Positions 445 through 63,400 of a DNA stretch of 64,000 nt are shown here, piece by piece; the stretch's first letter is position 1, and each line of letters opens with the position of its first letter. Made by a program: the position numbers and the translations under genes. Under the pieces are notes generated by a model that searched no databases, was not told the DNA's origin, and saw nothing but the letters and a program-made list of their open reading frames with translations. The DNA comes from Somniosus microcephalus (Eukaryota), in the NCBI GenBank assembly GCA_052327205.1, contig CM126204.1, positions 212,970,001-213,034,000 on the forward strand, in the 5' to 3' direction.

Positions 445-1071
445 GAGTATCAGGCAGATTTTGTCTCCAGGGTCGCTGCGAGTGTGTAGCGAATGGAGGA
501 GTCCATAGCGACCAAGGTGTCCCATGCTTCTCGTAGATGCCTCCGCTGAGGAAGCGCTGAGTGAGGGTGGCGAGAGGGGCTTCCCAGGAGAACGCATTGG
601 AGAAGTGTGTGAGGCTCCAACCTTCCACAGCTGTGCCTAAGACTTGAAGAAGTAGCCCCAAACCTGCAACAACAAGGTCCTTCAACATACAAGTGCTGTC
701 CCTTTAAATCGCAGCTTCTCCGATTGACCTGCAGCTGACAGCAAGCAAGCCGGCAAGCTTCACGCCAGGTCTCAGCAGCGGGGTTCCCCGCAGGCGGGTT
801 TGATGTGGGGAAAGCCCCAAAGTTGCAACGGCCCCGGAATAACTACCTCAACAAGCTGATAATTGGTAATTAGTGTGCCGATGACCAGTCCCGCCAGCGG
901 CGGCCGGGACTGAAGCGGGTCGCGGGGAAACGGCAGTCCGAAAGTCGGACGGGGCAGGGAATCAGGCGCGGGGGGGTCCCGACCCGCTTTTTCGCCCGAC
1001 CCGCTTTTTCGCCGATTTTCGGCCCCCGGCCACATGAAAAGCCGCCCGACGGCGGCCAGAAAATTGACCCC
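442..1071 (+). mobile_element. Truncated, internally deleted non-autonomous Harbinger (copy A; right part only)
   Basis: 442-514 matches 2203-2275 and 514-1071 matches 2677-3215 of copy B. Ends in GAAAATTGACCCC, followed by TGA-GTGTCT satellite. The left TIR is missing. Confidence 0.88.
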
Positions 1072-1338
1072 TGAGTGTCTAAACAAAGTAATAACAAGAC
1101 ACACTGAGCGTGTAGACACAGCAATCACCAGACACACTGAGCATCTGGACATAGCAATCACCGGACACACTGAGCATCTGGACATAGCAATCACCAGACA
1201 CACTGAGCATCTAGACACAGCAATCACTAGACACAGTGAGCGTCTAGACACAACAATCACCACAAACACTGAGCGTCAAGAAATAGCAATTACAAGACAC
1301 ACTGAGCGTCTGGACACAGCAACCACCAGAAACACTGA
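1072..1338 (+). repeat. 33-bp satellite array, segment 2 (~8 units)
   Basis: Same monomer. Begins and ends with the TGA trinucleotide used as the Harbinger target. Confidence 0.97.
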
Positions 1339-1593
1339 GGCCCCGATTTTCGGCTTGTGTGGGAAATGGTCGGGTTTCCCCGAATGTGGGGTTTCTGACA
1401 CACATAAAAATGTGTCAGCCAGCTCCATGCAATTTTCCCTCAAGTGGCCAATTAATTCCCAGCATGTGGGAAGCCTTGCTAATTGTCCAATTCGAGTCAG
1501 AAATCCCCACAGTATGATGTCATCATTCGTGGTGCTTTCAAGGTCCATCGCAAGCACTGCAGCCTCTGAAGGCTTCCAAACAAAGCATACAGG

Positions 1594-2500
1594 ATGACAG
1601 AGGAGCCTGCAGCAGCTGTGGCCAGTGCCAGACCCCGAGCTGCCTTCAAATTCGACGAGGCTTTACTGCAGGCATTATTGGATGGGATTAGTGCCCACAG
1701 GGAGGTCCTCTTCCCTAGGTCAGGGAGGAAGAGGCCTCCCACTGAGGCCAATGCTGCATGGATGCAGGTGTCAGCAGATGCCAACTCGCTGGGAATCACC
1801 AGAAGAACCTTGGCATTACATCTCTAACTCCTTCCTTTACTCCCCCACCGTACCATCCAGAGCCCCCGTCCTCACTGTGGAGGAGGAAGAGGCTGTGCTG
1901 CCAGACTCCTCAGAGGAAGCTCCAACCTCTGAGGGTGCAGCGTCAGCAGAAGTAAGCGCACCCAGCACCAGCGCAGACACTCACACCTCGGGGGGACCTT
2001 CGAGACATAGAGTAGTGTTGTCACCTGGTGTTTCACAGCTCACAAGTGAGCTTCAGCAGATTCTGGAGACAGGGACAACAGTAGAGAGTCCTCGTCAGAG
2101 GGTGCAGGACTCTGCCAGTGCAGCTCAGCTGCGCTGCATGTCGACCCTCTGCCTCTGGGTCCATCCGCAAGAGAAGAGGTGATGGATCTCCATGCACAGA
2201 TGCAGGAGTCTCTGGCAGGTTTTGTCTCCAGGGTCATTGCGAGTGTGGAGCGTATGGAGGAGTCCATAGCGACCATGAGCAGAGCCTTTGTGGAGTCATT
2301 GGCGCATGAACGCATCACCATGGAAAGGTTGGCAACCTCCATGGAGGAGATAACTCGCCAGGGGACGGAAAACATGGTGAGTGCTCATAAGAGAATGACA
2401 TCTCTTGAGCGTTGGCCATCTGTTGAACAGAGAAACCAGATCTTCATGGAAGTCATTCTGAGTAGGACTGCCAGTGCCGAAACGGGTCCCCATGGCCCCC
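1594..2500 (+). pseudogene. Disrupted Harbinger Myb/SANT-like gene remnant
   Basis: MTEEPAAAVASARPRAAFKFDEALLQALLDGISAHREVLFPRSGRKRP...AWMQVS resembles the N-terminal half of the Myb/SANT domain at 59876-60112 (RAQRFSEHDLRVLVGAVEKRRHILFP..GKKP...AW). It breaks off before the QCRKK helix. An acidic/Ser-rich segment and a coiled-coil-like segment follow (2179 onward) in other frames. Confidence 0.75.
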
Positions 2501-2520
2501 TAAAGCACAGCAAGGTGCTC

Positions 2521-2688
2521 TCAAGCCACTTCCAAGCGCTGGCCCCTTCTGGCCTGTGCAGCTTCAGGTGAGTGAGCAGCAGCCTGGTGCTCCTGGTGCT
2601 CATCCTGCTGTTCCTGGTTCTGCTGCTGCCGCCTCTGCTGCTGGAGATCCTGTAATGGCAAGAAGGGAAGGAAAAAAAGGCGTCCCAT
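2521..2688 (-). pseudogene. Probable N-terminal remnant of the Harbinger transposase gene
   Basis: Short MG...QQQRRQQQ...RRGQR ORF convergent on the Myb remnant, downstream of a TTTAAA box. It lies where the transposase lies in the full-length element. No catalytic core remains, so the call rests on position. Confidence 0.45.
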
Positions 2689-3215
2689 GCTTCTCGTAGA
2701 TGCCTCCGCTGAGGAAGCGCTGAGTGAGGGTGGCGAGAGGGGCTTCCCAGGAGATCGCATTGGAGAAGTGTGTGAGGCTCCAACCTTCCACAGCTGTGCC
2801 TAAGCCTTGAAGATGTAGCCCCAAACCTGCAACAGCAAGGTCCTTCAACATACAAGTGCTGTCCCTTTAAATCGCAGCTTCTCCGATTGACCTGCAGCTG
2901 ACAGCAAGCAAGCCGGCAAGCTTCACGCCAGGTCTCAGCAGCGGGGTTCCCCGCAGGCGGGTTTGATGTGGGGAAAGCCCCAAAGTTGCAACGGCCCCGG
3001 AATAACTACCTCAACAAGCTGATAATTGGTAATTAGTGTGCCGATGACCAGTCCCGCCAGCGGCGGCCGGGACTGAAGCGGGTCGCGGGGAAACGGCAGT
3101 CCGGAAGTCGAACGGGGCGGGGAATCAGGCGGGGGAGTCCCGACCCACTTTTACGGCGATTTATGGCCCCCGACCGCCTGAAAAGCCGCCCGGTGGCGGC
3201 CAGAATATTGACCCC

Positions 3216-3914
3216 TGAGCGTCTAGACTACAGCAATCACCAGACAGATTGAGCATCTGGACACAGCAATCACCAGACACACTGAGCGTCTAGACACAGC
3301 AATCACTAGACACACTGAGCATCTACACACAACAATCACCAGACACACTGACCGTCTGGACACAGGGATCACCACAAACACTGAACATCAAGAAACAACA
3401 ATCACCAGACACACTGAGCGTCTGGACACGACAATCACCAGACACACTAAGTGTCTAGACACAGCAATCACCTGACACACTGAGCGTCCAGACACAGCAA
3501 TCACCAGACACACTGAGCGTCTAGCCACAGCAATCACCAGACACACTGAGCATCTAGCCACAGCAATCACCAGACACACTGAGCGTCTAGCCACAGCAAT
3601 CACCAGACACAATGAGCATCTAGACACAGCAATCAATAGACACACTGAGCGTCTAGAAAACAGCAATCACCAGACACACTGAGCATCTGGACACAGCAAT
3701 CACCAGACACACTTAACATCTAGACACAGCAATCACCTGACACACTGCGTGTCTAGACACAGCAATCACAAGACACACTGAGCGTCTAGACACAGCAATG
3801 ACAGGACACAATGAGCGTCAAGACACAGCAATCACCAGACAAACTGAGCATCTAGACCACAGCAATCACCAGACACACTGAGCGTCTGGACACAGAAATC
3901 ACCAGAAACACCAA
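3216..3914 (+). repeat. 33-bp satellite array, segment 3 (~21 units)
   Basis: Same monomer; spacer between the two inverted Harbinger copies. Confidence 0.97.
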
Positions 3915-5796
3915 GGCCCCGATTTTCGGGCAGCTGTCGGGCGGCTTTTCATGCGGCCGTGGTCCGAAAATCGCGGAAAAAGCGGGTCGGGACCCCCCCC
4001 GCCTGATTCCCCGCCCCGTCCAACTTTCGGACCGCCGTTTCCACGCGCCCCGCTTCAGTCCCGCCCGCCGCTGGCGGGACTGCTCGTCGGAGCACTAATC
4101 ACCAATGATCACCTTGTTAAGGACGATTTTCCCGTGCCGTTGCGACTTTGGGGCTTTCCCCACCTGAAACCCGCCTGCGGGGAACCCCGCCGATGAGAGC
4201 TGGCGTGAAAACAGCTGGCTTGCTTGCTTGCAGCAGCAGGGCTGAGGGCTGAAGATATTTAAAGAGGCAGCATTTGTAGGCTGCAGGGCCTTGTTGATCA
4301 AGGCTTGGGGGAACTATTTGAAGCCTTAGGAGCAGCTGCAGAAAGTTGGAGCCTCACACACTTCTTCAGTGTGAGCTCCTGGGAAGCCCCTCTCACCACC
4401 CTAACTCAGGACCTCCTCAACCGAGGCATCTGCTAGAAGCATGGGAGGCCTTTGGCACCTTCCCTTCCTGGCATTAGAGGATCTCCAACAGCAGAGGTGG
4501 CAGCAGCAGAACCAGGAACAGCATGATGATTACCAGGAGCACCAGGCTGCTGCTCACTCACCTGAAGCTGCACAAGCCAGAAGGGGCCAGCGCTTGGAAG
4601 TGGCTTGAGAGCACCTTGCTGCGCTTTAGGGGGCCAGTGGGACCCGTTTCTGCACTGGCAGTCCGACTCAGAAGGACTTCCATGAAGATCTGGTTTCTCT
4701 GTTCAACAGATGGCCAACGCTCCTCAAGAGATGTCATTCTCTTATGAGCACTCACCATGTTTTCCGTACCCTGGCGAGTTATCTCCTCCATGGAGGTTGC
4801 CCACCTTTCCATGGTGCTGCGTTCATGCACCAATGACTCCACAAAGGTTCTGCTCATAGTCGCTATGGACTCCTCCATTCGCTCCACACTTGCAGCGACC
4901 CTGGAGACAAAACCTGCCAGAGACTCCTGCATCTGTGCATGGAGATCCATCACCTCTTCTCTTGCGGATGGACCCAGAGGCAGAGGGTCGAGATGCAGCG
5001 CAGCTGAGCTGAGCTGGCAGAGCCCTGCGCCCTCCGACGAGGACTCTCCACTGTTGTCCCTGTCTCCAGAATCTGCTGAAGCTCACTTGTCAGCTGTGAA
5101 ACACCAGGTGACAACACTACTCTATGTCCCAAAGGTCCCCCCGAGGTGTGAGTGTCTGCGCTGGTGCTGGGTGCGCTTACTTCTGCTGACGCTGCGCCCT
5201 CAGAGGTTGGAGCTTCCTCTGAGGAGTCTGGCTGCACAGCCTCGCCTCTTCTCCTCCACAGTGAGGACGGGGGCTCTGGATGGTACTGTGGGGGAATAAA
5301 GGAAGGAGTTACAGATGTAATGCCAAGGTTCCTCTGGTGACTCCCAGCGAGTTGGCATCTGCTGACACCTGCATCCATGCAGCATTGGTCTCAGTGGGAG
5401 GCCTTTTCCTCCCTGACCTGGGGAAGAGGACCTCCCTGTGGGCCCTAACCCCATCCAATAATGCCTGCAGTGAAGCCTCGTCGAATTTGAAGGCAGCTCG
5501 GGGTCTGGCACTGGCCACAGCTGCTGCAGCTCCTCTGCCATCCTGTATGGTTCATTTGGAAGCCTTCAGAGAATGCACTGCTTGCCATGGACCTTGAAAG
5601 CACCACGAATGATGACATCATACTGTGGGGATTTCTGACTCGAATTGGACAATTAGCAAGGCTTCCCACATGCTGGGAATTAATTGGCCAATTGAGGGAA
5701 AATTGTGTGGGGCTGGCTGACACTTTTTTATGTGTGTCAGAAACCCCACATTCGGGGAAATCCGACCATTTCCCACACAAGCCGAAAATCGGGGCC
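3915..5796 (-). mobile_element. Non-autonomous PIF/Harbinger DNA transposon (copy C, ~1.88 kb)
   Basis: Perfect 15-bp TIRs GGCCCCGATTTTCGG (3915-3929) / CCGAAAATCGGGGCC (5782-5796). 3-bp TSD CAA (3912-3914, 5797-5799). Same internal structure as copy B, inverted. Confidence 0.95.
4630..5541 (-). pseudogene. Disrupted Harbinger Myb/SANT-like gene remnant (copy C)
   Basis: ARPRAAFKFDEASLQALLDGVRAHREVLFPRSGRKRPP..AAWMQVS plus downstream acidic and coiled-coil-like segments. Has frameshifts and the same truncation point as copy B. Confidence 0.75.
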
Positions 5797-8700
5797 CAAG
5801 TGTCTAGACACAGCAATCACAAGGCACACTGAGCGTGTAGACAAAGCAATCACCAGACACACTCAGCATCTGTATACAGCAGTCACCAGACACACTGAGC
5901 GTCTAGACACAGCAATCTCCAGAAACACTGAGCACCAAGAAACAGCAATCACCAGACACACTGAGCGTCTGGACACGACAATCATCAGGCACACTGAGCG
6001 CCTAGGCACAGCGATCACCAGACACACTGAGCGTCTGGGCACAGCAATCACCAGACACACTGAGCGTCTGGACACAGCAATCACCAGACACAGAGCGTCT
6101 GGACAGAGCAATCACTAGACACACTGAGTGTCTAGACACAGCAACCTCCAGAAACACTGAGTGTCTAAACACAGCAATCATCAGACACACTGAGCATCTG
6201 GAGACAGCAATCACCAGACACACTGAGCATCTAGGCACAGCAATCACGAGACACACTGAGCGTCAAGAAACAGCAATCCCCAGACACACTGAGCATCTGG
6301 ACATGACAATCACCAGACACACTGAGTGTCCAGCCACAGCAATCACCAGACACACTGAGCGAGTAGCCACAACAATCACCAGACACAATGAGCATCTAGA
6401 CACATCAATCACCAGACACACTGAACAGCTAGTAAAAGAGCAATCACCAGACGCACTGAACATCTGGACACAGCAATCACTAGACACACTGAGCGTCTAG
6501 ATACAACAATCACCAGACACACTGAGCGTCTGGACACAGCAATCACTACAAACACTGAGTGTCAAGAAACAGCAATCACCAGACTAACTGAGTGTCTAGA
6601 CGCATCAATCACCAGACGCACTGAGCATCTAGACACAGCAATCACCTGACACACTTAGCATCTAGACACGGCAATCACCTGACACACTGAGTGTCTAGAC
6701 ACAGCAATCACAAGACACACTGAGCATCTAGACACAGCAATGACAGGACACAATGAGCACCTGGACACAGCAATCACTAAACACACTGAGCATTGAGAGC
6801 ACAGCAATCACCAGACACACTGAGCATCTGGACACAGCAATCACCAGAAACACTGAGCGTGTAGACAAAGGAATCACCAGACACGCTCAGCATCTGGACT
6901 CAGCAATCACCAGGCACACTGAGCACCTAGACACAACAATCACCAGACACACTGAGCGTCTGGACACAGCAATCACCAAAAACACTGAGTGTCAAGAAAC
7001 AGCAATCACAAGACACACTGAGAATCTAGACACAGCAATCACAACAGGCACTGAGCGTCTAGACACAGCAATCACCAGACACACTGAGCGTCGAGACACA
7101 GCAATCATCAGACACACTGAGCGTCTGGAGACAGCAATCACCAGACACACTGAGCATCTAGGCACAGCAATCACGAGACACACTGAGCGTCAAGAAACAG
7201 CAATCCCCAGACACACTGAGCGTCTGGACATGACAATCACCAGACACACTGAGTGTCCAGCCACAGCAATCACCAGACACACTGAGCGAGTAGCCACAAC
7301 AATCACCAGACACAATGAGCATCTAGACACGTCAATCACCAGACACACTGAACAGCTAGTAAAAGAGCAATCACCAGACGCACTGAACATCTGGACACAG
7401 CAATCACTAGACACACTGAGCGTCTAGATACAACAATCACCAGACACACTGAGCGTCTGGACACAGCAATCACTACAAACACTGAGTGTCAAGAAATAGC
7501 AATCACCAGACTAACTGAGTGTCTAGACGCATCAATCACCAGACACACTGAGCATGTAGACACAGCAATCACCTGACACACTAAGCGCCCAGACACAGCA
7601 ATCCGCAGACACACTGAGTGTCTAGCCACAGCAATCACCAGACACAATGAGCATCTAGACACAGCAATCACCAGACACACTTAGCATCTAGACACGGCAA
7701 TCACCTGACACACTGAGCATCTAGACACAGCAATGACAGGACACAATGAGCGCCTGGACACAGCAATCACTAGACACACTGAGCATCTAGACACAGCAAT
7801 GACAGGACACAATGAGCGCCTGGACACAGCAATCACTAGACACACTGAGCATTGAGAGCACAGCAATCACCAGACACACTGAGAATCTAGACACAGCAAT
7901 CACAACAGGCACTGAGCGTCTAGACACAGCAATCACCAGACACACTGAGCGTATAGACACAGCAATCACAATACACACTGAGCATCTAGACACAGCAATC
8001 ACCAGACACACCGAGCATCTGGACAGATCAATCACAGGACACTATGAGTGTCTAGACACAGCAATGACAGGACACACTGAGCATCTATACACAGCAATCA
8101 CCAGACACACTGAGCATGAAACATAGCAATCACCAGGCATACTGAGTGTCTGAACAGAGCAATCACCAGACATACTGAGCATCTAGACATAGCAATCACC
8201 AGACATATTAAGCGTCTGGACACAGCAATCACAAGACACACTGAGCATCTAGACACAGCAATCCCCAGACACCTGAGCGTCTAGACACAGCAATCACAAG
8301 GCACACTGAGCATCTGGACACAGCAATCACTAGACACACTGAGCGTCTAGACACAGCAATCACCTGACACACCAAGCACCCAGACACAGCAATCAGCAGA
8401 CACACTGAGCGTCTAGCCACAGCAATCACCAGACACAATGAGCATCTGGACACAGCAATCACCAGACACACTTAGCATCTAGAAACAGCAGCACAAGACA
8501 CACTGAGCGTCTAGACACAGCAATGACAGGACACAATGAGCGTCAAGACACAGCAATCACCAGACACACTGAGCATCTAGACCACAGCAATCACCAGACA
8601 CACTGAGCGTCTGGACACAGCAATCATCAGAAACACTGAGTGTCTAGACACAGCAATCACAAGGCGCACTGAGCGTGTAGACAAAGCAATCACCAGACAC

Positions 8701-11700
8701 ACTCAGCATCTGGACACAGCAATCACCAGGCACACTGAGCGCCTAGACACAACAATCACCAGACACACTGAGCGTCTGGATACAGCAATCACCACAAACA
8801 CTGAGCGTCAAGAAACAACAATCACCAGACACACTGAGCGTCTGGACACAGCAATCACCAGACACACTGAGCGTCTAGACACAGCAATCAGCAGACACAG
8901 CGAGTGTCTAGACACAGAAATCACCAGACACGCTGAGCGTCTGGACACAGCAATCACCAGACACACTGAGCATCTAGACACAGCAATCACCAGACACCTT
9001 GAGGTGCTAGACAGCAATCACAAGACACACTGTGCATCTAAACACAGCAATCTCCAGACACACTGAGCATCTGAACACAGCAATCACAAGACACACCAAA
9101 CATCTAGACACAGCAATCACCAGACACACTGAGCAGCTGGACACAGCAATTACAAGACACGCTGAAAGTCTAGACACAGCAATCACAAGACACACTGAGC
9201 GTCTGGACACAGCAATCAAAAGAGACAGGGCGTCTGGACACAGCAATCACAAAACGCACTGAGCATCTGGACACAGCAATCACCAAAGACACTGAGCGTC
9301 TAAACACAGCAATCACCAGACACACTGAGCGTATAGACACAGCAATCACAATACACACTGAGCATCTGGACAGATCAATCACAGGACAATGTGAGTGTCT
9401 AGGCACTGCAATCACCTGACACACTGAGCGTCTGGACACAGCAATCACCAGACACACTGAGCATCTAGACAGAGAAATCAGCAGACACAGCCCGCGTCTA
9501 GACACAGTAATCACCAGACACACTGAGCGTTTGCACACAGCAATCACCTGACTCATCGAACATCTAGACACAGCAATCACAAGACACACTGAGCATCTAG
9601 AGACAGCAATCATCTGACACACTGAGCGCCTGGACACAGCAATCACCAGACAAACTGAGTGTCTGGACACAGCAATCACCAGACACACTGAGCTTCTACA
9701 CACAGCAATCACAAGACACACTGAGAGTCTAGACACAGCAATGACAGGACAAACTGAGCATCTAGACACAGCAATCACCAGGCACACCGAGTGTCTAGAC
9801 CACAGCAATCACCAGACACACTGAGCATCTAGACACGGCAATCACCAGACACACTGAGCGACTAGACATAGCAATCACCAGACATACTGAGTGTCTGGAC
9901 AGAGCAATCACCAGACTTACTGAGCGTCTAGACATAGCAATCGCCAGACATACTGAGTGTCTGGACACAGCAATCACAAGACACACTGAGCATCTAGACA
10001 CAGCAATCACCAGACACCTGAGCGTCTAGACACAGCAATCACCAGACACACTGAGCGACTGGACACAACAATCAGCAGCCACACTGAGCTTCTACATACA
10101 GCAATCACCAGACACCTTGAGGTGCTAGACAGCAATCACTAGACACACTGTGTGTCCAGACACAGCAATCTCCAGACACACTGAGCGTGTGGACACAGCA
10201 ATCACTAGACACAGTGAGCGTCTAGACACAACAATCACCACAAACACTGAGCGTCATGAAACAGCAATCACAAGACACACTGAGCATCTGGACACATCAA
10301 TCACAAGACACACTGAGCATCTGGACAGATCGATCACAAGACACACTGAGCGTCTAGACACTGCAATCACCTGACACACTGAGCGTTTGGACACAGCAAT
10401 CACTAGATTCACTGAGCGTCTAGGCACAGCAATCACAAGACACACTAAGCATCTAGACACAGCAATCACCAGACACACTGAGCGGCTGGACACAGCAATT
10501 ACAAGATACACTGAGCCTTTAGACACATCAAACACAAGACACAATGAGAGTCTAGACATAGCAATCACCAGACACACTGAGCGTCTAGACACAGCAATCA
10601 CACGACACACTGAGTGTCTGGACACAGCATTCAACAGACACACTGAGCGTCTAGACGCAGCAATCACCAGACACACCGAGCATCTGGACAGATCAATCAC
10701 CAGACACATTGAGTGTCTAGACACAGCAATCACCAGACAAAACTGAGTGTCTACACACAGCAATCACCAGACACACTCAGCGTCTGGACACAGCAATCAC
10801 CACAAAAACTGAGGGTGAAGAAACAGCAATCACAAGACACACTGAGAATCTAGACACAGCAATCACCACAGACACTGAGCGTCTAGACACAGTAATCAGC
10901 AGATACACCGAGCATCTAGACACAGCAATCACCAGACACATTGAGCATCTAAACACAGCAATTACAAGACACACTGAGTGCCTAGACACAGCAATCACCA
11001 GACACACTGAGTGTCTGTACACAGCAATCACCACGCACACTGAGCGCCTAGACACAGCAATCACCAGACACACTGAGTGTCTGGACACAGCAATCACCAC
11101 AAACACTGAGCGTCAAGAAACAACAATCACAAGACACACTGAGCGTCTAGACACAGCAATCACAAGACACACTGAGCGTCTGGACACAGCAATCAAAAGA
11201 GACAGAGCGTCTGGACACAGCAATCACAAAACGCACTGAGCATCTGGACACAGCAATCACCAAAGACACTGAGCGTCTAAACACAGCAATCACTAGACAC
11301 AGTGAGCATCTAGACACAGCAATCACCAGACACACTGAGCGTATAGACACAGCAATCACAATACACACTGAGCATCTGGACAGATCAATCACAGGACAAT
11401 GTGAGTGTCTAGACACTGCAATCACCTGACACACTGAGCGTCTGGACACAGCAATCACCAGACACACTGAGCATCTAGACAGAGCAATCAGCAGACACAG
11501 CCAGCGTCTAGACACAACAATCACCAGACAAACTGAGTGTCTGGACACAGCAATGACAAGACAAACTGAGCTTCTACACACAGCAATCACAAGACACACT
11601 GAGAGTCTAGACACAGCAATGACAAGACAAACTGAGCATCTAGCCACAGCAATCACCAGACACACTGAGCGACTAGACATAGCAATCACCAGACACACTG

Positions 11701-39819: not shown

Positions 39820-39820
39820 C

Positions 39821-41954: not shown

Positions 41955-41967
41955 AAGAAGGGAGGAG
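41955..41967 (+). promoter_or_regulatory. Polypurine tract
   Basis: AAGAAGGGAGGAG directly before the 3' LTR. Confidence 0.9.
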
Positions 41968-42201
41968 TGTTGTGTATGTAACCTGTTCCACCTTAAGAGA
42001 GCTTAAGCCTGTTCCACCTTAAGAGATGTACTACTTTCTCAGGCTGCTGTAGACGTAATACCGGGGGTGAACACACCGGTATATAAGCACTGTGCAGTAA
42101 TCTTGTATTCAGTATAGTCCCTGCCTCCAACCAGTAAAGACCTGTTTTTATTGTTACTCATTAGTCTGTTTTAATTAACTAAATAATTCACAGACTTAAC
42201 A
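41968..42201 (+). repeat. 3' LTR (234 bp)
   Basis: Direct repeat of 39586-39819. Confidence 0.97.
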
Positions 42202-43638: not shown

Positions 43639-43969
43639 TAGTGGTTAGCACTGTTGCCTCGCAGCGCCAGGGACCCGGGTTCAAATCCGGCCTCGGGTGA
43701 CTGTCTGTGTGGAGTTTGCACATTCTCCCCGTGTTTGCGTGGGTTTCCCCCGGGTGCTCCGGTTTCCTCCCACAGTCCAAAGATGTGCGGGTTAGGTTGA
43801 TTGGCTATGATAAAATTGACCCTTAGTGTTAGGGGGATTAAATACGGGGATAGGGTGGGATATGTGTTGGTGTAGGGGTTACGGGGATCGGGTGGGATAT
43901 GTGTCGGTGCAGGCTCGATGGGCCGAAATGGCCTCTATCTGCATTGTGGGGTTTCTGTGATTTCTGTGA
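43639..43969 (+). mobile_element. tRNA-derived V-SINE (HE1-like), slightly 5'-truncated
   Basis: tRNA-like head with partial A box (TAGTGGTTAG) and B box (GGTTCAAATCC). V-domain core TGTGTGGAGTTTGCACATTCTCCCCGTG...TCCGGTTTCCTCCCACAGTCCAAAGA. LINE-like 3' end with a (TTTCTGTGA)2 tail. Confidence 0.92.
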
Positions 43970-52900: not shown

Positions 52901-53326
52901 ACTGACTGTCTAGACACAGCAATGACAGGACACACTGAGGGTCTAGACACAGCAATCACCAGACACACTGACCGTCTAGACCACAACAATGACAGGACAC
53001 ACTGAGCATCTGGACATAGCAATCACTAGACACACTGAGTGTCTAGACAGAGCAATCACCAGACACACTGAACGTCTGGACACAGCAATCACAGGACACA
53101 CTGAGAATCTAGACACAGCAATCACTACAGACACTGAGTGTCTAGACACAGCAATCACCAGACACACTGTGCGTCTAGACACAGCAATCACAGGACACAC
53201 TGAGCGTCTAGACAGAGCAATCAACAGACACACTGAGAATCTAGATATGACAATCACCAGACACACTGAGCGTCTAGACACATCAATCACCAGGCACACC
53301 GAGCATCTAGATACAGCAATGACAGG
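43970..53326 (+). repeat. 33-bp satellite array segment (~9.4 kb)
   Basis: Same monomer; includes a paralog of the block that flanks the LTR element. Confidence 0.97.
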
Positions 53327-55728
53327 ACATAAGAACATAAGAACATAAGAAATAGGAGCAGGAGTAGGCCAATCGGCCCCTCGAGCCTGCTCCACCATTC
53401 AATAAGATCATGGCTGATCTGATCCTAACCGCCAATCCACTATCACAGAACCATCTCCTGAATCTAACAGAATTAGACACATGAAATAGGAGCAGGATCA
53501 GGCTACATGGCCCCTGGGCCCGCTCCGCTACCCACAGGGCCATGTCCGATCCGAACCTAGACTCATGTCCAAATTCCTGCCCGCTCCCCGTAACCCTTAA
53601 TTCCCTTTACTTCTAGGAAACTGTCTATTTCTGTTTTAAATTTATGTAATGATGTAGCTTCTACAGTTTTTTGGGGCAGCATATTCCATGGACCTACCAC
53701 CCTCTGAGTGAAGTACTTCCTCCTCATCTGAGTTTTGAAAGAGCAGCCCCTTATTCTAAGACTATGCCCCCTAGTTCTAGTTTCACCCATCATCGGGAAC
53801 ATCTTCCCCGGATCCACACGATCCAACCCCTTCACAATCTTATATGTTTCAATAAGATCGCCTCTCATTCTTCTGAACTCCAATGAGTAGAGTCCCAATC
53901 TACTCAACCTCTCCTCATATGTCCATCCCCTCATCCCCGGGATTAACCAAGTGAACCTTCTTTGTACTGACTCGAGAGCAAGTATGTCCTTTCTTAAGTA
54001 TGGACACCAAAACTGTACGCAGTATTCCAGGTGCGGTCTCACCAATACCTTGTACAACTGAAGCAATACCTCCCTATTTTTATATTCTATCCCCCTAGCA
54101 ATGAAAGCCAACATTCCATTGGCCTTCTTAATCACTTGCTGCACCTGCATACTAACCTTTTGAGTTTCGTGCACCAGGACCCCCAGATCCCTTTGTACTT
54201 CAGTACTTTCCAGTTTCTTGCCATTAAGATAATAACTTGCTCTACGATTTTTCCTGCCAAAGTGCATAACCTCACACTTTCCAGTATTGTATTCCATCTG
54301 CCAAATCTCTGCCCACTTACTTAGCCTGTCGATGTCCCCTTGCAGGTTTTTTATGTCCTCCTCACTCACTACTTTCCCTCCCATCTTAGTATCATCTGCA
54401 AACTTTGATATGTTACACTCGGTCACCTCCTCCAAATCGTTAATATAGATTGTAAAGAGTTGGGGACCCATCAGTGACCCCTGCGGAACACCACTAGTTA
54501 CTGATTGCCAGTCTGAGAAGGAACCATTTATCCCAACTCTCGGCCTTCTGTTAGATAGCCAATCCTCTATCCATGCCAGAATATTACCCCCAATCCCGTG
54601 ATTTTTTATCTTAAGCAATAATCTTTTGTGTGGCACCTTGTCAAATGCCTTTTGGAAGTCTAAATACACTACGTCCACTGGTTCCCCTTTATCCACCCTA
54701 TACGTTACTTCCTCAAAGAACTCCAGCAAATTTGTCAAACATGTCTTCCCCTTCATAAAACCATGCTGACTTTGTCCTATTAAATTATGATTGTCCAAAT
54801 GTCCTGTTACTGTCTCCTTAATAATGGACTCCAAAATTTGACCAACCACAGATGTTAGGCTAACCGGTCTATAGTTTCCAGCCTTCTGTCTACTGCCCTT
54901 TTTAAATAAGGGTGTTACATTAGCAGTTTTCCAGTCTGCCGGGACCTTTGCCGAGTCCAGGGAGTTTTGGAAAATTATTACCAATGCACCCACAATCTCT
55001 ACCGCCACTTCCCTCAAGACCCTAGGATGTAAGCCATCAGGTCCAGGTGATTTATCCGCCTTGAGTCCCATTATTTTACCGAGTACCACTTCCTTAGTGA
55101 TTTTGATCGTGTTTAGTTCCTCCCCCCCTTTAGCCCCCTGTTTGTCCAGTGTTGGGATATTCTTAGTGTCTTCTACTGTAAAGACTGATGTAAAATATTC
55201 ATTCAGTGTTTTTGCCATCTCCATATTTCCCACCATTAATTTCCCGGTCTCATTCTCTAAGGGACCAACATTTACTTTAGCCACCCTTTTTCTTTTTATA
55301 TAACTGTAAAAACTCTTACTATCTGTTTTTATATTTTTTGCTAATTTACTTTCATAATCTATCTTCCCTTTCTTAATCAATCTTTTTGTTATTTTTTGCT
55401 GTCTTTTAAAGTTTTCCCAATCCTCTATCCTCCCACTAGATTTGGCTACCTTATATGCCCTTGTTTTTAGTCGAATACTATCCTTAATTTCTTTACTTAG
55501 CCACGGATGGCTGTCTTTTCTTTTACACCCTTTTCTTCTCAGTGGAATATATATTTTTTGGAAGCAGTAAAATAACTCCGTAAATGTACACCACTGATCA
55601 TGTATCGTCTTACCCTTTAATCTATTTTCCCAATCCACTCTACTCAATTCCGCTCTCATACCTTCATAGTCTCCTTTATTCAAGCTTAGCATGCTTGTTT
55701 GAGATCCAACCTTCTCACCTTCAAACAG
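53327..55728 (-). mobile_element. 5'-truncated CR1-clade LINE
   Basis: 3' tail (TTCTTATG)3 on the minus strand, 3'UTR stem-loop and an RT ORF. Truncated downstream of the endonuclease domain; no clear TSD. Confidence 0.95.
53563..55728 (-). CDS. CR1 ORF2 fragment (reverse transcriptase and C-terminus), open but lacking its start and the APE domain
   Basis: KSPGPDG, NYRPVSLTS, QHGF, YLDFQKAFD, GVPQGS, KFADD, RDLGV, RPHLEYC and RRMRGDLI motifs; no stops over ~720 codons. Confidence 0.9.
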   Translation of the reverse strand: MFEGEKVGSQTSMLSLNKGDYEGMRAELSRVDWENRLKGKTIHDQWCTFTELFYCFQKIYIPLRRKGCKRKDSHPWLSKEIKDSIRLKTRAYKVAKSSGRIEDWENFKRQQKITKRLIKKGKIDYESKLAKNIKTDSKSFYSYIKRKRVAKVNVGPLENETGKLMVGNMEMAKTLNEYFTSVFTVEDTKNIPTLDKQGAKGGEELNTIKITKEVVLGKIMGLKADKSPGPDGLHPRVLREVAVEIVGALVIIFQNSLDSAKVPADWKTANVTPLFKKGSRQKAGNYRPVSLTSVVGQILESIIKETVTGHLDNHNLIGQSQHGFMKGKTCLTNLLEFFEEVTYRVDKGEPVDVVYLDFQKAFDKVPHKRLLLKIKNHGIGGNILAWIEDWLSNRRPRVGINGSFSDWQSVTSGVPQGSLMGPQLFTIYINDLEEVTECNISKFADDTKMGGKVVSEEDIKNLQGDIDRLSKWAEIWQMEYNTGKCEVMHFGRKNRRASYYLNGKKLESTEVQRDLGVLVHETQKVSMQVQQVIKKANGMLAFIARGIEYKNREVLLQLYKVLVRPHLEYCVQFWCPYLRKDILALESVQRRFTWLIPGMRGWTYEERLSRLGLYSLEFRRMRGDLIETYKIVKGLDRVDPGKMFPMMGETRTRGHSLRIRGCSFKTQMRRKYFTQRVVGPWNMLPQKTVEATSLHKFKTEIDSFLEVKGIKGYGERAGIWT

Positions 55729-56159
55729 CGCGTCTCGCCACAGCAATCACCAGACACACTGAGCGTCTAGACACTGCAATCACCAGGCACGCTGAGCGTT
55801 TAGCCACAGCAATCACAAGACACAATTAGCATCTAGACAAAGCAATCACCAGACACACTGAGCGTCTAGAAAACAGCAATCACCAGAAACACTGAGCATC
55901 TAGACACAGCAATCACTAGACAAACTGCGCATCGAGACACAGCAATCACCAGACACACTGAGCATCTGGACACAGCAATCACTAGGCAAACTGAGCATCG
56001 AGACACAGCAATCACCAGACACACTGAGCATCTGGACACAGCAATCACCACACTCACTGACTGTCTAGACACAGCAATCACGAGACACACTGTGTGTTTA
56101 GACACAACAATTACAAGAGACACTGAGTGCCTAGACACAGCAATCACCAGACACACTGA
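55729..56159 (+). repeat. 33-bp satellite array segment (~13 units)
   Basis: Same monomer. Confidence 0.96.
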
Positions 56160-56475
56160 GGCCTAGAAATTCAGTTGGCTGCACCAGCCGTTAGCACCTT
56201 AGGAGGAGCAGATCTCGAGCGCTAGGCGCTTAGCGCCCGGGCGCAGCGCGATCTGCGCCTCGTCCCAACTTCAGTAGACATTTAGCGCCGGTGCAAAGTC
56301 ATTGCGCGCACTCATCTGCGCGCGCAGATCATGACGTCATTTCGTCGTGCAACGCCCTTTGTGCGCCCAGAACCGGAACTTCACTCGCGCCGCCCCATTG
56401 TGCGCCGGGCGGCCCTAACGACTGTTGAGTGGAACGGTACACAGCCGAGGCGGGCCGTGGGCACTTACCCTGCAC

Positions 56476-56481
56476 TATAAA
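56476..56481 (+). promoter_or_regulatory. Putative TATA box of the transposase gene
   Basis: TATAAA about 170 bp upstream of the ATG at 56650, next to a CpG-rich subterminal region. Confidence 0.5.
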
Positions 56482-56649
56482 GGGCAGCCATTTTGCAGCA
56501 CTCACTCTTGTGCAACGGATTTTTGGAGCGAGACCAAGGAAGAGAGCTTACTGCTTTGGCCCAACACTGGGACAGGTATTTTTGGCTTCAGGCCAGAGCT
56601 TTGCAATTCTCTTTGCCTTCATTGAGATCTCAGTGTTTGCCAGCATATT

Positions 56650-57785
56650 ATGGGGCTGCATTGGGTGCCAACGCTGAGTTCCAGCATTATGTCGGAAGGG
56701 CTTACAGACGCCGTGAGAGAGTGGCAGCCCTGGCTAGACGCAGAGGGGGCAACAGGCGTCGCCAAGGGAGGCCTTACCCACCCAGGGTATACCGCCAGCA
56801 GTTCTCCTATCTCAACATGTCTGCCGCGCAGTGTGTTAGGAGGCTGCAATTCAGAAGGGAGGTGGTTGCAGAGATCTGCCAGCTGCTTCACAGAGATCTG
56901 CGTCCACAGCTGAGGCGCAGGACGTCTCTGTCGGTGGCAGTGAAGGTGACGGTGGCTCTCAACTTCTATGCCACCGGCTCCTTCCAATCCGCTGCTGGGG
57001 ACATCGCTAACATCTCCCAGTTCGCCGTGCATTGCTGCATCCGCCAGGTGACCAGTGCCCTTTTCAGAAGGAGACGTCAATTCATCTCCTTCCCCATGAC
57101 CCTGGACAAGCAGCAGCGTGCAGTGGGATTTGCAAGAATAGCGGGCTTCCCCATGGTGCAGGGCGCCATTGACTGCACGCATGTGGCTTTGCGGGCACCT
57201 CTGGAGCATGCCGAGGATTACCGCAACCGGAAGGGCTACCATTCCCTCAACGTACAGCTGGTGTGTGACCACAGGCAGCGCATCCTAGCTGTCAATGCCC
57301 GCTTTCCAGGCAGCAGCCACGATGCCTTTATCCTGCGACAGACAACTGTGGCTGACATGTTCCAGGCACAGCCTCACCGAAGAGGATGGCTTATCGGGGA
57401 CAAAGGCTATCCTTTGTGTACCTGGCTCATGACCCCGCTCCGCGCGCCCAGGACCCCTGCTGAAGAGGCATACAACGAGAGCCATCAAGCGACCAGGAAC
57501 ATCATCGAACAAACAATCGGCATCCTGAAGCAACGGTTCCGCTGTCTGGATCGCTCCGGTGGAGCCCTCCAGTATTCGCAGGAGTGAGTCTCCCAATTCG
57601 TCGTCGTTTGCTGCATGCTGCACAACCTGGCTATCCGCAGGACTCAGGCACTGCCACCTCACGATGGACCACCACCTCAGGAGGAGGAGCAGGAGGAGCA
57701 TGAGGAGGAGGAGGAGTACCAGCCCAGGAGGGAGGCAGAAGGTCTAAGGGCCGCCCGTCGGCGGCTTATTGAACGTCACTTCTAG
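56650..57785 (+). pseudogene. Harbinger DDE transposase (HARBI1-like, DDE_Tnp_4 type) with one nonsense codon and a probable 5' frameshift
   Basis: GAIDCTHV, YRNRKGYHSLNVQ, PGSSHDAFI, GDKGYP and RNIIEQTIGILKQRFRCL motifs. After TGA at 57585-57587 the same frame continues VSQFVVVCCMLHNLAIRR...ERHF to TAG at 57783-57785. The ATG at 56650 is one base out of frame in a G run. Confidence 0.92.
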
Positions 57786-57898
57786 GCCCCCTGTCAGGGA
57801 ATGGCTTGTGCCAATGAAGGAACATGATTGCAGCCGCTCCGCAAGCCCTCAGCCGGTTAAGGCAACAAACACTTCAAAGATCAAACATGGACAATCTG

Positions 57899-57918
57899 AA
57901 TAAATAAAATGGTTTATT
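57899..57918. terminator. Back-to-back polyadenylation signals for the convergent genes
   Basis: AATAAATAAA on + (57899-57908) and AATAAA on - (TTTATT at 57913-57918), between the two stop codons. Confidence 0.65.
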
Positions 57919-58102
57919 GTACAAACTCAGGGCCCTTCCCACATGAAAACCAAAAACAGACGAAACCCCCAAAAAACACTCACACACATGACTCACTCCC
58001 ACAACCTGAGGAGGATTAACAAAAGATGTAAACAAAAATGGCCTTCATCCTCGGCCTTCACAAAACACCCATTCCAAAAAACAAAACATTTGGCCACACC
58101 CT

Positions 58103-60112
58103 CTACTTTGTGGCCCGTGAGGGCGATGCCTTCTGCAAACTTTGGCGGCCCCTGCACGCCCTGCTGCTCCTCCTCAAAGTGAGGCCAGTGGCTGCTGCAA
58201 GGCTGGGGGCAGGCTCCTGAGGGGCACATGTCGTGACGGCAGATGCCCTTGGGGGTCGGCCTAGACGAGGTCTGGCCCTCGAGGGACCGGCTGGTGAATG
58301 CTGCAGCTGTGGCTGGGCAGCATCAGTCGCTGCAGCAGCTTGTGGCAGCTCCACTGGGGGAGTGGCAGTGGTGGCTGGAGGAATGGGGACAAGCTGGCGG
58401 ATGGCAGGCGCTCGCTGGTCGCCTGAGACACTGGCACTCGCCCGGGCCAGCACTGCAGCATGCGCAGCAATCTGCCGAGGGACAGACCGCTGTGCTGCTG
58501 CAGCGCGGCGGGTGCCCTGGCGATGCCTGGCTGACACAGCGAGTGTGGCAGCAGTGAGTGCCCGTGTTGCCCTGTTCTGTGACCGCATCAGAGCAGCCAG
58601 TGACTGCACGGCACCACTGATCACCTGGCCAGTCGCTGCCTGAGCTGCCCCGAATTCCGCCCGACTCGCTGCCTGATCTGCCCCGAATTCCGCCAAACTG
58701 GTGGCCTGTGAGGCCCCGAATTCGGTCACACTCCGAGACAGGGACTCAATGGCCTCAGGCATCCATGCCACTACCCCCATGAGCTGCGTGTGCCGGCGCT
58801 CCGAGTCCGCGGACATATCCTTGAGGAGGCGCAGCTCCTCGGCGGTGACCGTCTCCGGACTGGAGGCCGGACTCTCCCTCTGGGGAGAAGGCCGCCGAGC
58901 TGCCCGACCCTTCCTGCGTTGCTGGACGCCGCTGGGCCCAGCAATTGGACTCCCCTCCGACCCTTCCCCCCTCTGGGGAGAAGGCCGCTGAGCTTCCACC
59001 CCCCTCTCGCGTTTCTGCAGGCCGCTGGTCCCAGGAGCTACACTCCCCTCCGACACTTCCCCCAGGCTCCCCTCCAGGGAAGACGTGTCCCCTACATTGG
59101 CATGGCTTGCCGCGGCTGAGGGTTCCCCTGATGGGCCGCCTTCCTCTTCCTCCTCCTCCTCCTCCTCTTCTGAGGGGCTGTCACTGGCAACTTCAGGGAC
59201 CTCCTCCTCACCATCTGAAAGCAGGAAGGCACAAGAGTAGCTTTAGAGTGAGGAGAGGGCGTCAGCGAGGGATGCATGAGTGGTGGCATTCAGCGCATTG
59301 GTCGGACAGTGGCAAAGGATGTAGATCTGATGTGCAAGTGGGACGAGAGAGGTCCAAAGGGTGATGTCCTTACCATTGGTGCCCAGAACAGGGTCGGCAT
59401 CTCCAGATGCAACGGGGCCAATCACCCGGGCACCCATGATGCGCTCCACGCGCTATTGCAGCTCAGTGAGCTGCTGGATCTGGAGTCCGCTTCCCCCGGT
59501 CTCAGTCCGGCTCCTCTTATTATTGGCCAGCTTGGCCTGCAAGAGAAAGGACGGCCTCTAAGTACAGTGTGTAGCCCTGATCTTGTGTGCACTGCCTCTC
59601 ATGCTGGAATAGCCTGGCCAGTGTGTAGCCCTGATCTTGTGTGGACTGCCTCCCATGGTGGAATAGCCTGGCCAGTGTGTTGCCCTGATCTTGTGTGCAC
59701 TGCCTCCCATGGTCGAATAGCTTGGCCAGTGTGTTAAGTGCAGAATGTGCAATTGATGTTCATGACTGTCCCATAGCTGCTGCATGAGGGCTGGCCATTA
59801 GGGCTTTCAGGTCCCTTTGCCCATAATGTGAGGTGCACATGCAAGGATGAGGAGGACACTGGAAAGGGTACTCACCCTGACAATCCTGGCGAGGTCATTT
59901 AGCTTTTTGCGGCATTGTACAGAGCTCCTGGGGTCCTCACTGTTGGATGTCACCCTGGTGGCGACATGCCTCCAGGCTTTCCGGTAGACACGGGCCGCCG
60001 GCTTCTTCCCATTGTCCGGAAACAAGATATGGCGTCTCTTCTCCACAGCGCCAACCAGCACCCTCAGATCATGCTCTGAGAAGCGCTGCGCTCGTTCACG
60101 GGCCTTCTCCAT
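58103..60112 (-). pseudogene. Harbinger Myb/SANT-like DNA-binding protein, 3 exons (60112-59876, 59536-59374, 59214-58103; ~503 aa) with one internal stop
   Basis: Exon 1 encodes the Myb/SANT domain (RF..DL..L....E....LF...AW..VA..V......R...QCRKK.NDL). Donors GTGAGT and GTAAG, acceptors TTGCAG and TTTCAG. Phases join in frame (237+163+1112=1512 nt). TAG at 59453-59455 in exon 2. Confidence 0.88.
59565..59734. repeat. 3 x 54-bp tandem repeat in Myb intron 1
   Basis: CAGTGTGTAGCCCTGATCTTGTGTGCACTGCCTCYCATGSTGGAATAGCCTGGC starting at 59565, 59619 and 59673. Confidence 0.95.
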
Positions 60113-60473
60113 CCTTTCAGGCGCTATTTAGGTCCAGCAGCAGTGTTCAGGCCTAGCTGGAGGGCTGCAGTGTCCAGGGCGTGGCAGCAGACCAACTCGA
60201 CCCTTCCCCCTTAAGAGCTGGCCGGCGCCAGGGTGTCTGCTGTCAATCAAGAAATGACCGCACCTGCGCTGCGCCCGGCCTCGGCGGTAACGCTCAGCAC
60301 CGCTGGCTTAGCGCCTAAAGAGAGTCGTGCATCGCCAGTTTTAGCGCTCGAGCAAACTCTTAGGGCGAAGCTACTGAATATCGGCGAAGTGGCCTCGACT
60401 TTGCGCCGGGCGCAAACTTTAGTGGCCGCCCGACTTTACCGCCCCAAAAGTGGCTATAATGAATTTCTAGGCC

Positions 60474-63400
60474 CGAGTGTCTGGACACAGCAATCACCAG
60501 ACACACTGAGCGTCTAGACACAGCAATCACCTGACACACCGAGCGTCTGGACACAGCAATCACCAGATACACTGAGCTTCTAGACATAGCAATGAAAGGA
60601 CACACCGAGCATCTAGACACAGCAATCACCAGACACACCGAGCATCTGGACACAACAATCACTAGACACACTGAGCATCTGGACACAGCAATCACAAGGT
60701 ACACAGAGTGTTTAGACACATCAATCACCAGACACACTGAGCGTCTAGACACAGCAATCACAGGACACACTGAGCGTCTAGACAGAGCAATCAACAGACA
60801 CACTGAGAATCTAGACATGACAATCACCAGACACACCGAGTGTCTAGACACATCAATAAACAGGCACACCAAGCATCTAGATACAGCAATGACAGGACAC
60901 ACAGAGCGTCTAGCCACAGCAATCACCAGACACACTGAGCATCTAGACACATCAATCACCAGGCACACTGAGAATCTAAACACAGCAATCACCTGACACA
61001 CTGAGCGTCTAGACACAGCAATCACCAGACACACTGAGCGTCTAGACCACAGCAATCACCAGATAAACTGAGCGTCCAGGCACAGCAACCACCAGACATA
61101 CAGAGCGTCAAGCCACAACAATCACCAGACACACTGAGCATGTAGACACAGCAATCATCTGACACACTGGGCACCTGAAAACAGCAACCACCAGGCACAC
61201 TGAGCATCTAGACACATCAATCACAAGACACACTGACAGTCTAGACACAGCAATGACAGGACACACTGAGGGTCTAGACACAGCAATCACCAGACACACT
61301 CAGCATCTAGACCACAACAATGACAGGACACACTGAGCATCTGGACATAGCAATCACTAGACACACTGAGCGTCTAGACAGTGCAATCACCAGACACACT
61401 GAGCATCTGGAAACAGCAACCACCAGAAACACTGAGTGTCTAGACACAGCAATCACAAGACACACTGAGCGTGTAGACACAGCAATCACCAGACACACTA
61501 AGCATCTGGACATAGCAATCACCAGACACACTGAGCGTCTAGACACAGCAATCACTAGACACACTGAGCGCCTAGACACAGCAATCAACTGACACACTGA
61601 GCATACAGACAGAGCAATCACCAGACACACTGAGCGTCTAGACACTGCAATCACCAGACACACTGAGCGTTTAGCCACAGCAATCACCAGACACAATGAG
61701 CATCTAGACACAGCAATCACCAGACACACTGAGCGTCTGGACACAGCAATCACCACACACACTGAGCGTCTAGACACAGCAATCACTAGACACACTGTGC
61801 GTCTAGACACAACAATCACCAGACACACTGAGTGTCTGGACACAGCAATCACCACAAACACTGAGCGTCTAGACACATCAAACACCAGACACACTGAGCA
61901 TCTAGACACAGCAATCACCAGACACACTGAGCGTCTAGAGACAGCAATCACCTGACACACTGAGTGTTTGACACAGCAATCACAAGACACACTGAGCGTC
62001 TAGACACAGCAATGACAGGACACAATGAGCATCTAGACCACAGCAATCACCAGACACACTGAGCATCTAGACCACAGCAATCACTAGACACACTGAGCAT
62101 CTAGACACAACAATCGCCAGACACACTGAGCGTCTGGACACAGCAATCACCACAAACACTGAGGGTCAAGAAACAGCAATCACAAGACACACTGAGAATC
62201 TACACACATCAATCACCACAGACACTGAACGTCTAGGCACAGCAATCACCAGACACATTGAGCGTCTGGACACAGCAAACACAAGACACACTGAGTGCAT
62301 AGACACAGCAATCACCAGACAAACTGAGTGCTTGGACACAGCAATCACCAGACACACTGAGCGTCTAAACACACCAATCACCAGACACACTGAGCGTCTA
62401 AACACACCAATCACCAGACACACTGAGCTTCTAGACATAGCAATGAAAAGACACACCGAGCATCTAGACACAACAATCACCAGACATACTGAGCGTCTAG
62501 ACACAGCAATCAGAAGATACACTGAGTGTCTACACACAGCAATCACAAGACACACTCAGTGTCTAGACACAGCAATGATAGGACACACTGAGCGTCTAGA
62601 CACAGCAATCACCAGACACAATGAGCATCTAGACAACAGCAATCACCAGACACACTAAGCGTCTGGACACAGCAATCACCAGACACACTGAGCGTCTGGA
62701 CACAGCAATCACTAGAAACACCGAGTGTCTAGACACAACAATCACCAGAAACACTGAGCGTGTAGACACAGCAATTACCCGACACACTGAGCATCTGGAC
62801 ATAGCAATCACCAGACACACTGAGCGTCTAACACAGCAATCACTAGACACAGTGAGCGTCTAGACACAACAATCACCAAAAACACTGAGTGTCAATAAAC
62901 AGCAATCACAAGACACACTGAGCATCTGCACACATCAATCACAAGACACACTGAGTGTCTAGACACAGCAAACACCAGACACACTGAGTGTCTAGACACA
63001 GCAATCGCCAGACACACCAAGCGTCTGGACACAGCAATCACCAGACACACTGAGTGTCTAGACACAGCAATCACAAGACACACTGAGCGTTTAGACACAT
63101 CAATCACCAGACAGACTGAGTGTCTAGACCACAGAAATCAGCAGATAAACTGAGTGTCTGGACACAGCAATCACTAGACACATCGAGCATGTAGACACAG
63201 CAATCACAAGACACACTGAGCATCTCGACACAGCAATCATCTGACACACTCAGGGCCTGGACACAGCAATCACCAGACACACTGAGTGTCTAGACACATC
63301 AATCACAAGACACACTGACTATCTAGACACAGCAATGACAGGACACACTGAGGGTCTAGACAAAGCAATCACCAGGCACACTGAGCATCTGGACATAGCA

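What the first reader, a model, noticed from the sequence alone, without database searches (positions are those of the whole stretch)
1069..60480. Harbinger transposons inserted at exactly the same 3 bp of the 33-bp satellite monomer: a satellite-targeting DNA transposon system
Seen: copy A (right end, TGA-GTGTCT at 1072), copy B (AAACAC[TGA]...[TGA]GCGTCT), copy C (AAACAC[CAA]...[CAA]GTGTCT, opposite orientation) and the full-length element (ACACAC[TGA]...[CGA]GTGTCT) all use the same trinucleotide of the unit. That trinucleotide is the centre of a quasi-palindrome, ACAC-NNN-GYGT. The TSD sequence varies (TGA, CAA, CGA) while the register does not, so the flanks rather than the TSD appear to be read. 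Two families with different TIRs and both orientations are involved, so this is not one insertion amplified along with the array. Known: Harbingers make 3-bp TSDs and some vertebrate families have extended target consensus sequences. Inference: this satellite is an array of roughly 1500 target sites acting as a Harbinger landing pad or sink. Copies A and B may not be independent events.
Basis: partly seen in the sequence, partly recalled or inferred. Interest (0 to 1): 0.85.

Follow-up and report, generated by a model that had tools for sequence, protein, structure and literature searches.

The report
Harbinger target preference phases satellite insertions
Jumping genes of the Harbinger family do land at fixed positions of this 33-base repeat, but likely only because the repeat happens to contain the short sequence they prefer all over the genome, an already known trait, and the repeat holds just 6 of an estimated 150,000 copies, so it is not a special target.

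Summary
The junctions are real. Copies A, B, C and D share one trinucleotide of the 33-bp monomer, and a copy beyond the window (F) does too.

Satellite targeting is not supported. The satellite is one 117-kb locus (286 of 286 exact 24-mers). It holds 11 of 326,599 TIR-like ends, against 5.6 expected from genome density. None of 29 D-family and none of 24 B-family copies inspected elsewhere has this satellite as flank.

Dispersed copies show a 15-bp consensus, ARASWC-NNN-GWSTYT, like zebrafish Harbinger3_DR (AAACAC-CWG-GTCTTT). Genome-wide, 15,188 ends follow ARACAC-NNN (about 180 by chance). A matrix built from dispersed copies predicts two registers, 64% and 36%; observed 5 and 1. It also predicts the phase of 5 of 5 copies in an unrelated 19-bp array.

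Perfect sites in the array are less often filled (2 of 30) than a rough genome estimate (26%), so it is not a sink. This is the known extended target preference seen through a periodic sequence. Unexplained: three unrelated LTR elements also share one phase.

The parts
1..63975 (+). 33-bp tandem array, 1,495 monomers in the window, mean 88% identity to the consensus unit; part of a single 2,313-monomer locus running from window coordinate -26,374 to about 91,000
442..1071 (+). Copy A: right-hand fragment of a B-family non-autonomous Harbinger; left end lost at a CAG microhomology, one internal deletion; right junction at register 28, [TGA]GTGTCT
1339..3215 (+). Copy B: 1,877-bp non-autonomous Harbinger with imperfect TIRs; duplication TGA at 1336-1338 and 3216-3218; site AAACAC[TGA]GCGTCT
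1570..1824 (+). Myb/SANT-like remnant in copy B
   Evidence: PF13873 E=3.2e-4, 21.0 bits, just under the 21.7 cut-off; 33% identical to D's Myb exon over 54 aa
3915..5796 (-). Copy C: 1,882-bp B-family copy in opposite orientation, 90.6% identical to B; duplication CAA; site AAACAC[CAA]GTGTCT
39586..42201 (+). LTR retroelement (gag-protease frame, LTRs 99.6% identical) with 5-bp duplication ACACC at monomer register 24; not a Harbinger
43638..43973 (+). Short interspersed insert (SINE-like by my reading; ends approximate)
53330..55724 (-). 5'-truncated LINE (CR1-like by my reading) with reverse-transcriptase frame; ends approximate
   Evidence: PF00078 E=4.3e-29
56160..60473 (+). Copy D: 4,314-bp two-gene Harbinger with perfect 14-bp TIRs; flanks ACACAC[TGA]..[CGA]GTGTCT
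56481..57584 (+). D transposase frame (stop to stop); broken near its start and by an in-frame stop at 57,585
   Evidence: PF13359 DDE_Tnp_4 E=1.7e-32
59810..60127 (-). D Myb/SANT-like first exon; later exons likely run to about 58,106
   Evidence: PF13873 E=1.5e-11
63976..64000 (+).
   Evidence: transposase PF13359 E=2.6e-32

Best explanation
Several abundant Harbinger transposon families in this genome insert at a loose 15-bp palindrome (ARASWC-NNN-GWSTYT), and the 33-bp monomer contains two overlapping matches to it, which likely accounts for the fixed insertion phase with no satellite-specific targeting. Shown: the consensus at dispersed copies, the two predicted registers, their use by 5 and 1 copies, and the small share of copies in the array. 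Inferred from the known family mechanism: the Myb-like protein binds the TIRs, the DDE transposase cuts and pastes with a 3-bp stagger, and the complex reads 6 bp on each side of the duplication. Inferred: the array is emptier than its sequence would allow because recent array duplications made new empty monomers, and precise excision or unequal crossing-over can remove copies.
For: Dispersal: 0 of 29 D-family and 0 of 24 B-family non-window copies have a satellite monomer as left flank. Exact left-end counts are 2,019 and 1,520, and the D-satellite junction occurs once in the genome. Consensus: 167 half-sites give A62 R82 A84 S70 W94 C70 percent. 15,188 TIR ends follow ARACAC-NNN, against 3 for the reversed control and about 180 by chance; 8 of them are in this array. 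Prediction: 64% register 28 and 36% register 26 (159 sites), observed 5 and 1. Insertions favour rare best-fit monomers: AAACAC (4.1% of monomers) in 3 of 4 left flanks, GTGTCT (13.1%) in 4 of 5 right flanks. Independent test: an unrelated 19-bp array on C1, 93.5% predicted at one phase, 5 of 5 observed, at least 4 distinct subfamilies. Literature: extended preference of 15 bp in vertebrates (PMC2836001); Harbinger3_DR consensus AAACACCWGGTCTTT (PMC3016246).
Against: The array has more copies than average: 6 against 2.8 expected by locus length (P=0.066) or 1.8 by satellite DNA alone (P=0.011), though the window was picked for having them. The matrix predicts about 27- to 30-fold enrichment, well above what is seen, so loss or array youth must be invoked. 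Three unrelated LTR elements share register 24, which the one LTR family tested does not predict (3%, rank 8 of 33), so DNA shape or chromatin may contribute. Satellites are often collapsed in assemblies, so arrays could be missing. The TIR pattern count is a proxy for copy number. The two monomer-variant tests were chosen after seeing the junctions.
Confidence: 0.88

Rival explanations
1. The Harbingers are targeted to this satellite, which acts as a landing pad or sink.
For: Six copies from three TIR types, in both orientations, phase-locked. 28 of the genome's 1,071 empty perfect sites lie in 0.002% of the genome. Two- to three-fold more copies than average.
Against: 11 of 326,599 ends. 0 of 53 inspected dispersed copies are in it. 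One locus only. Perfect sites filled 2 of 30, against a rough 26% genome-wide (Fisher P=0.011 in the opposite direction; the estimate assumes independent half-sites). Other repeats show the same behaviour.
Confidence: 0.04
2. Sequence preference plus a structural hot spot: the ACACTGA stretch of the monomer is bendable or faces outward on nucleosomes (33 bp is about three helical turns), and this draws both Harbinger transposases and LTR integrases.
For: All 9 independent Harbinger and LTR duplications lie within registers 24-30. Three LTR elements only 64-71% alike share register 24; chance is 0.001 if uniform and 0.02 under the LTR matrix.
Against: Post hoc, n=3. The Harbinger phases need no such term. 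Only one LTR family's matrix was built (71 half-sites, about 2 bits, a few contaminated by internal ends). Two of four non-LTR inserts lie elsewhere in the monomer (read by eye).
Confidence: 0.25
3. The shared phase comes from one insertion duplicated with the array.
For: The array does duplicate inserts: a 9,388-bp duplication carries a 100% identical LTR element. A and B are 2.1 kb apart, share 6 non-majority bases and pair in a tree on a zero-length branch.
Against: B, C, D, E and F differ in family or orientation. A-B distance is 4.1%, while A is 2.8% and B 3.9% from a dispersed copy; 5 of the 6 shared bases are common polymorphisms. The right flanks of A and B differ by 15%, like unrelated pairs (13-20%).
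Confidence: 0.03

Closest known systems
Zebrafish Harbinger3_DR / Harbinger3N_DR (PIF/Harbinger superfamily)
   Same: Two genes (DDE transposase plus Myb-like), short TIRs, 3-bp duplication, 15-bp palindromic target starting AAACAC. Its consensus scores in the top 2% of register-28 monomers under the matrix built here. Consensus read in PMC3016246 (passages).
   Different: Here the central triplet is free and A/T-rich rather than CWG, the consensus is looser (about 7 bits), and there are several families totalling about 154,000 copies. Protein similarity to Harbinger3_DR itself was not tested.
Plant PIF and Ping/mPing
   Same: Insertion preference extends beyond the 3-bp duplication; excision usually perfect (PMC2836001, passages and section 11).
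   Different: 9-bp rather than 15-bp preference.
Dada DNA transposons (repeat-targeting)
   Same: DNA transposons found at a fixed position in a multicopy sequence (PMC13565253, passages).
   Different: [quoted passage not shown] Here more than 99.99% of copies are outside the satellite.
NuwaI / NuwaII groups of the PHIS superfamily
   Same: DDE plus Myb/SANT two-ORF elements with a conserved C before and G after a 3-bp core (PMC4482050, passages).
   Different: Those groups are defined by CWG or C|TNA|G. Here the triplet varies. No tree was built to place these families.

Membership tests
PIF/Harbinger | DDE transposase of the DDE_Tnp_4 type | tested here: met
   D E=1.7e-32; E E=2.6e-32
PIF/Harbinger | Separate Myb/SANT-like gene | tested here: met
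   D PF13873 E=1.5e-11; B remnant E=3.2e-4, just below cut-off
PIF/Harbinger | Short terminal inverted repeats | tested here: met
   13-14 bp, perfect in C, D, E, F and imperfect in B; shorter than the 25-50 bp given as usual in PMC9179366
PIF/Harbinger | 3-bp target site duplication | tested here: met
   27 of 38 paired copies; 6 of 6 B-family pairs, with 7 of 13 fetched lacking a right TIR match; 9 of 11; 4 of 5 in the array
PIF/Harbinger | Extended 9-15 bp target preference | tested here: met
PIF/Harbinger | Two-protein transposition and precise excision | not testable with these tools
   needs a transposition assay
PIF/Harbinger versus Nuwa groups | Phylogenetic placement of the transposase | not tested
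   no reference transposases were fetched; no solved relative found by sequence
Repeat-targeting transposon (Dada-like) | Most copies lie in the target repeat | tested here: not met
   11 of 326,599 ends; 0 of 29 and 0 of 24 inspected copies
Repeat-targeting transposon (Dada-like) | One fixed position in the repeat unit | tested here: not met
   two registers used, 5 and 1
Repeat-targeting transposon (Dada-like) | Target sites in the repeat are filled more often than equal sites elsewhere | tested here: inconclusive
   2 of 30 against a rough 26%; points against, but the genome figure is a model estimate

The most novel reading that the evidence does not exclude
Expanding tandem arrays and LINE copies are then the main renewable source of top-grade targets. 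In this monomer a 7-bp segment is also a shared structural hot spot for two unrelated integrase classes (9 of 9 independent insertions).
Probability: 0.2. Interest if true: 0.45.

Novelty: new member of a known kind. Interest (0 to 1): 0.2.

Why it matters
A true satellite-targeting Harbinger would have been a new safe-haven strategy for a DNA transposon and a lead for site-directed integration; the data do not support that. What remains is a clean natural example of a known property. A 15-bp Harbinger target close to the zebrafish one is shared by several families with about 150,000 copies, and a matrix from dispersed copies predicts insertion phase in two unrelated tandem arrays. It is also a caution for scans: phase locking in a satellite does not show targeting.

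Tried and rejected
Satellite monomer as a coding repeat: one frame is open per strand in the consensus unit, but 31-, 32- and 34-bp spacings are frequent; rejected.

A 5-bp duplication (CTGAG) for B: possible at B alone, but C, D, E, F and dispersed pairs give 3 bp; rejected.

Satellite-TIR junctions elsewhere: one search gave 9 matches, 2 in this array; the other 7 strings do not continue as the monomer (read by eye).

Satellite derived from a dispersed repeat holding the same 15-mer: the 14 sites fetched lie in a LINE ORF2 tail and share only the 15-mer by eye; rejected.

A's internal deletion as a subfamily mark: not found among the fetched loci.

LTR matrix to explain the shared LTR phase: failed. 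No solved structure matched the transposase.

The primary Harbinger3_DR paper is not held, so its consensus is cited from a review. Paper searches for an earlier report of phase-locked Harbinger insertions in satellites (listings only) showed none; this does not cover subscription journals or Repbase. Earlier scan findings: none.

Full report
Observation. The window is a 33-bp tandem array (1,495 monomers) with inserts. D is a two-gene Harbinger (DDE_Tnp_4 E=1.7e-32, Myb/SANT E=1.5e-11), broken near its start and by a stop. A, B and C are a non-autonomous family with a Myb remnant. Its duplication is ATT in AGACAC[ATT]GAGCAT, two bases upstream of the shared site. A sixth copy, F (83,284-83,999, beyond the window), uses the shared site, AAACAC[TGA]GTGTCT.

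The satellite. A 24-mer of the unit has 286 exact matches in the 6.45-Gb assembly, all on one strand. All 286 lie in this locus: 68 upstream, 192 in the window, 26 downstream. The locus has 2,313 monomers over 117 kb. 37% of it lies in exact duplicates of 150 bp or more, including a 9,388-bp duplication, so much of it is likely young.

The transposons. Exact left-end 22-mers occur 2,019 times (D family) and 1,520 times (B family). A degenerate 13-bp TIR pattern matches 326,599 times against 18,091 for its reversed control: about 154,000 elements, one per 42 kb. That most matches are real ends is supported by paired copies with 3-bp duplications (27 of 38; 6 of 6 paired among 13 fetched; 9 of 11). 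Of the 30 best D hits fetched (of 40 listed), 0 of 29 non-window copies had a monomer in the left flank. Of the 30 best B hits, 25 were parsed and 0 of 24 non-window copies had one. The D-satellite junction occurs once in the genome.

Target consensus. 167 non-redundant half-sites from outside this array, out of 177 loci examined, give A, A/G, A, C/G, A/T, C at -9 to -4 and a free, A/T-rich triplet; about 7 bits in all. D and B families agree. Genome-wide, 15,188 TIR ends follow ARACAC-NNN, against 3 for the reversed control and about 180 from hexamer frequency. Eight of them are in this array.

Phase is predicted by that consensus. Scored over 1,874 regular monomers, the matrix puts 60.5% at register 28 (ACACAC[TGA]GCGTCT) and 39.0% at register 26 (AGACAC[ACT]GAGCGT). 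After dropping 8 sites from another array the figures are 63.7% and 35.8%. Observed: five and one. The copies also sit in rare best-fit monomers: AAACAC (4.1%) in 3 of 4 left flanks, P=2.6e-4; GTGTCT (13.1%) in 4 of 5 right flanks, P=1.3e-3 (chosen after seeing the junctions). An unrelated 19-bp array on C1, met among the first matches, is an independent test: 93.5% predicted at ATATAC[AGT]GAGTCC, and 5 of 5 copies are there, 69-83% identical to each other except one pair at 96%.

No sink. The locus has 11 TIR ends (6 copies) against 2.8 copies expected by locus length (P=0.066) or 1.8 by satellite DNA alone (P=0.011), in a window chosen for having them. The matrix would predict about 27- to 30-fold enrichment, so the array is under-filled. 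Empty ARACAC-NNN-GTGTYT sites number 1,071 in the genome (reversed control 2,369); 28 are in the array and 2 more are filled. The genome-wide filling estimate is 26% if half-sites are independent; 0 of 11 pairs tested had both halves perfect, so this figure is rough. The 19-bp array is denser, 5 copies in about 30 kb against 0.7, in line with its predicted 8-fold. Arrays can therefore be passive local hot spots.

Independence. B, C, D, E and F cannot be one event. A and B differ by 4.1%, no less than each differs from a dispersed copy (2.8% and 3.9%); they share one rare variant and pair on a zero-length branch. Their right flanks differ by 15%, like unrelated pairs. They are likely independent; a very early duplication is not excluded.

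Mechanism. Shown: consensus, registers, dispersal. From the literature: the Myb-like protein binds the TIRs and both proteins are needed; the target preference is 9 bp in plants and 15 bp in vertebrates; mPing excision is usually perfect (PMC2836001, passages and section 11). Harbinger3_DR integrates into AAACACCWGGTCTTT (PMC3016246, passages; the primary paper is not held). Inferred: a symmetric complex reads six bases on each side, so a periodic sequence yields a periodic insertion pattern.

Against my reading. Three LTR elements, 64-71% alike, all have 5-bp duplications ACACY at register 24 (a fourth is a duplicate). The matrix of one of these families (71 half-sites from 70 loci) gives that register 3%. 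A structural contribution is possible. Unassembled arrays cannot be excluded.

Known systems and novelty. The elements meet the PIF/Harbinger features tested and fail the test for repeat-targeting elements such as Dada (PMC13565253, passages). Other papers seen as passages: PMC4482050, PMC9179366, PMC12498223, PMC5753468. No supplements were read. Searches (listings only) showed no report of this exact case. The labels SINE and CR1 are my reading, not a database result. Verdict: new families showing a known trait; interest 0.2.

Noticed in passing
window 39586-42201; window coordinates about -16,478 to -11,587 and 68,657 to 73,962 (L083-L084, L086): Three LTR elements only 64-71% alike all have 5-bp duplications ACACY at the same monomer register (24); one family's genome-wide matrix does not predict it.
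   Followed up: partly
G000:C1:1,422,448-1,451,950 (L240-L243): 19-bp tandem array with five Harbinger MITE-size copies, all at one predicted phase, about 7-fold above average density.
   Followed up: yes
G000:C1:1,455,601-1,473,808 (L243-L245): Another 33-bp array with a different unit that also contains ACACAC-NNN-GCATCT; three Harbinger right ends share one flank, and two full copies are 99.6% identical, so probably duplicated. Relation to this window's unit not tested.
   Followed up: partly
L019 and L020 (G000:C3 9.88 Mb and 1.58 Mb): D-family copies at the same position of a 42-bp minisatellite at two loci, with near-identical flanks; probably a duplication.
   Followed up: no
L289-L303; L039, L049: 25 of the first 50 listed empty perfect sites have one 15-mer; 14 of 14 fetched lie in the ORF2 tail of one LINE subfamily. 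Two B-family copies sit in that same LINE site.
   Followed up: partly
whole genome G000: Empty perfect target palindromes are about half as frequent as the reversed control (1,071 against 2,369), as expected if many have been filled.
   Followed up: partly
dispersed paired copies: 11 of 38 paired copies have mismatched 3-bp duplications, 6 of them at two positions; ectopic recombination or asymmetric repair is possible.
   Followed up: no
window coordinates about -20,900 to -2,100 (L082-L085): 9,388-bp tandem duplication with a 100% identical 4.9-kb LTR element; very recent, or an assembly artefact.
   Followed up: no
whole genome G000: About 154,000 Harbinger-type elements. If the host is a cartilaginous fish (a guess, not tested), this contrasts with reports of absence in sharks (PMC4482050, PMC9179366), while PMC12498223 lists Harbinger among a reef shark's commonest DNA transposons.
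   Followed up: no
copy E, window coordinates 63,976-68,554 (L086): The Myb-side gene of E appears to contain a LINE 3' fragment.
   Followed up: no
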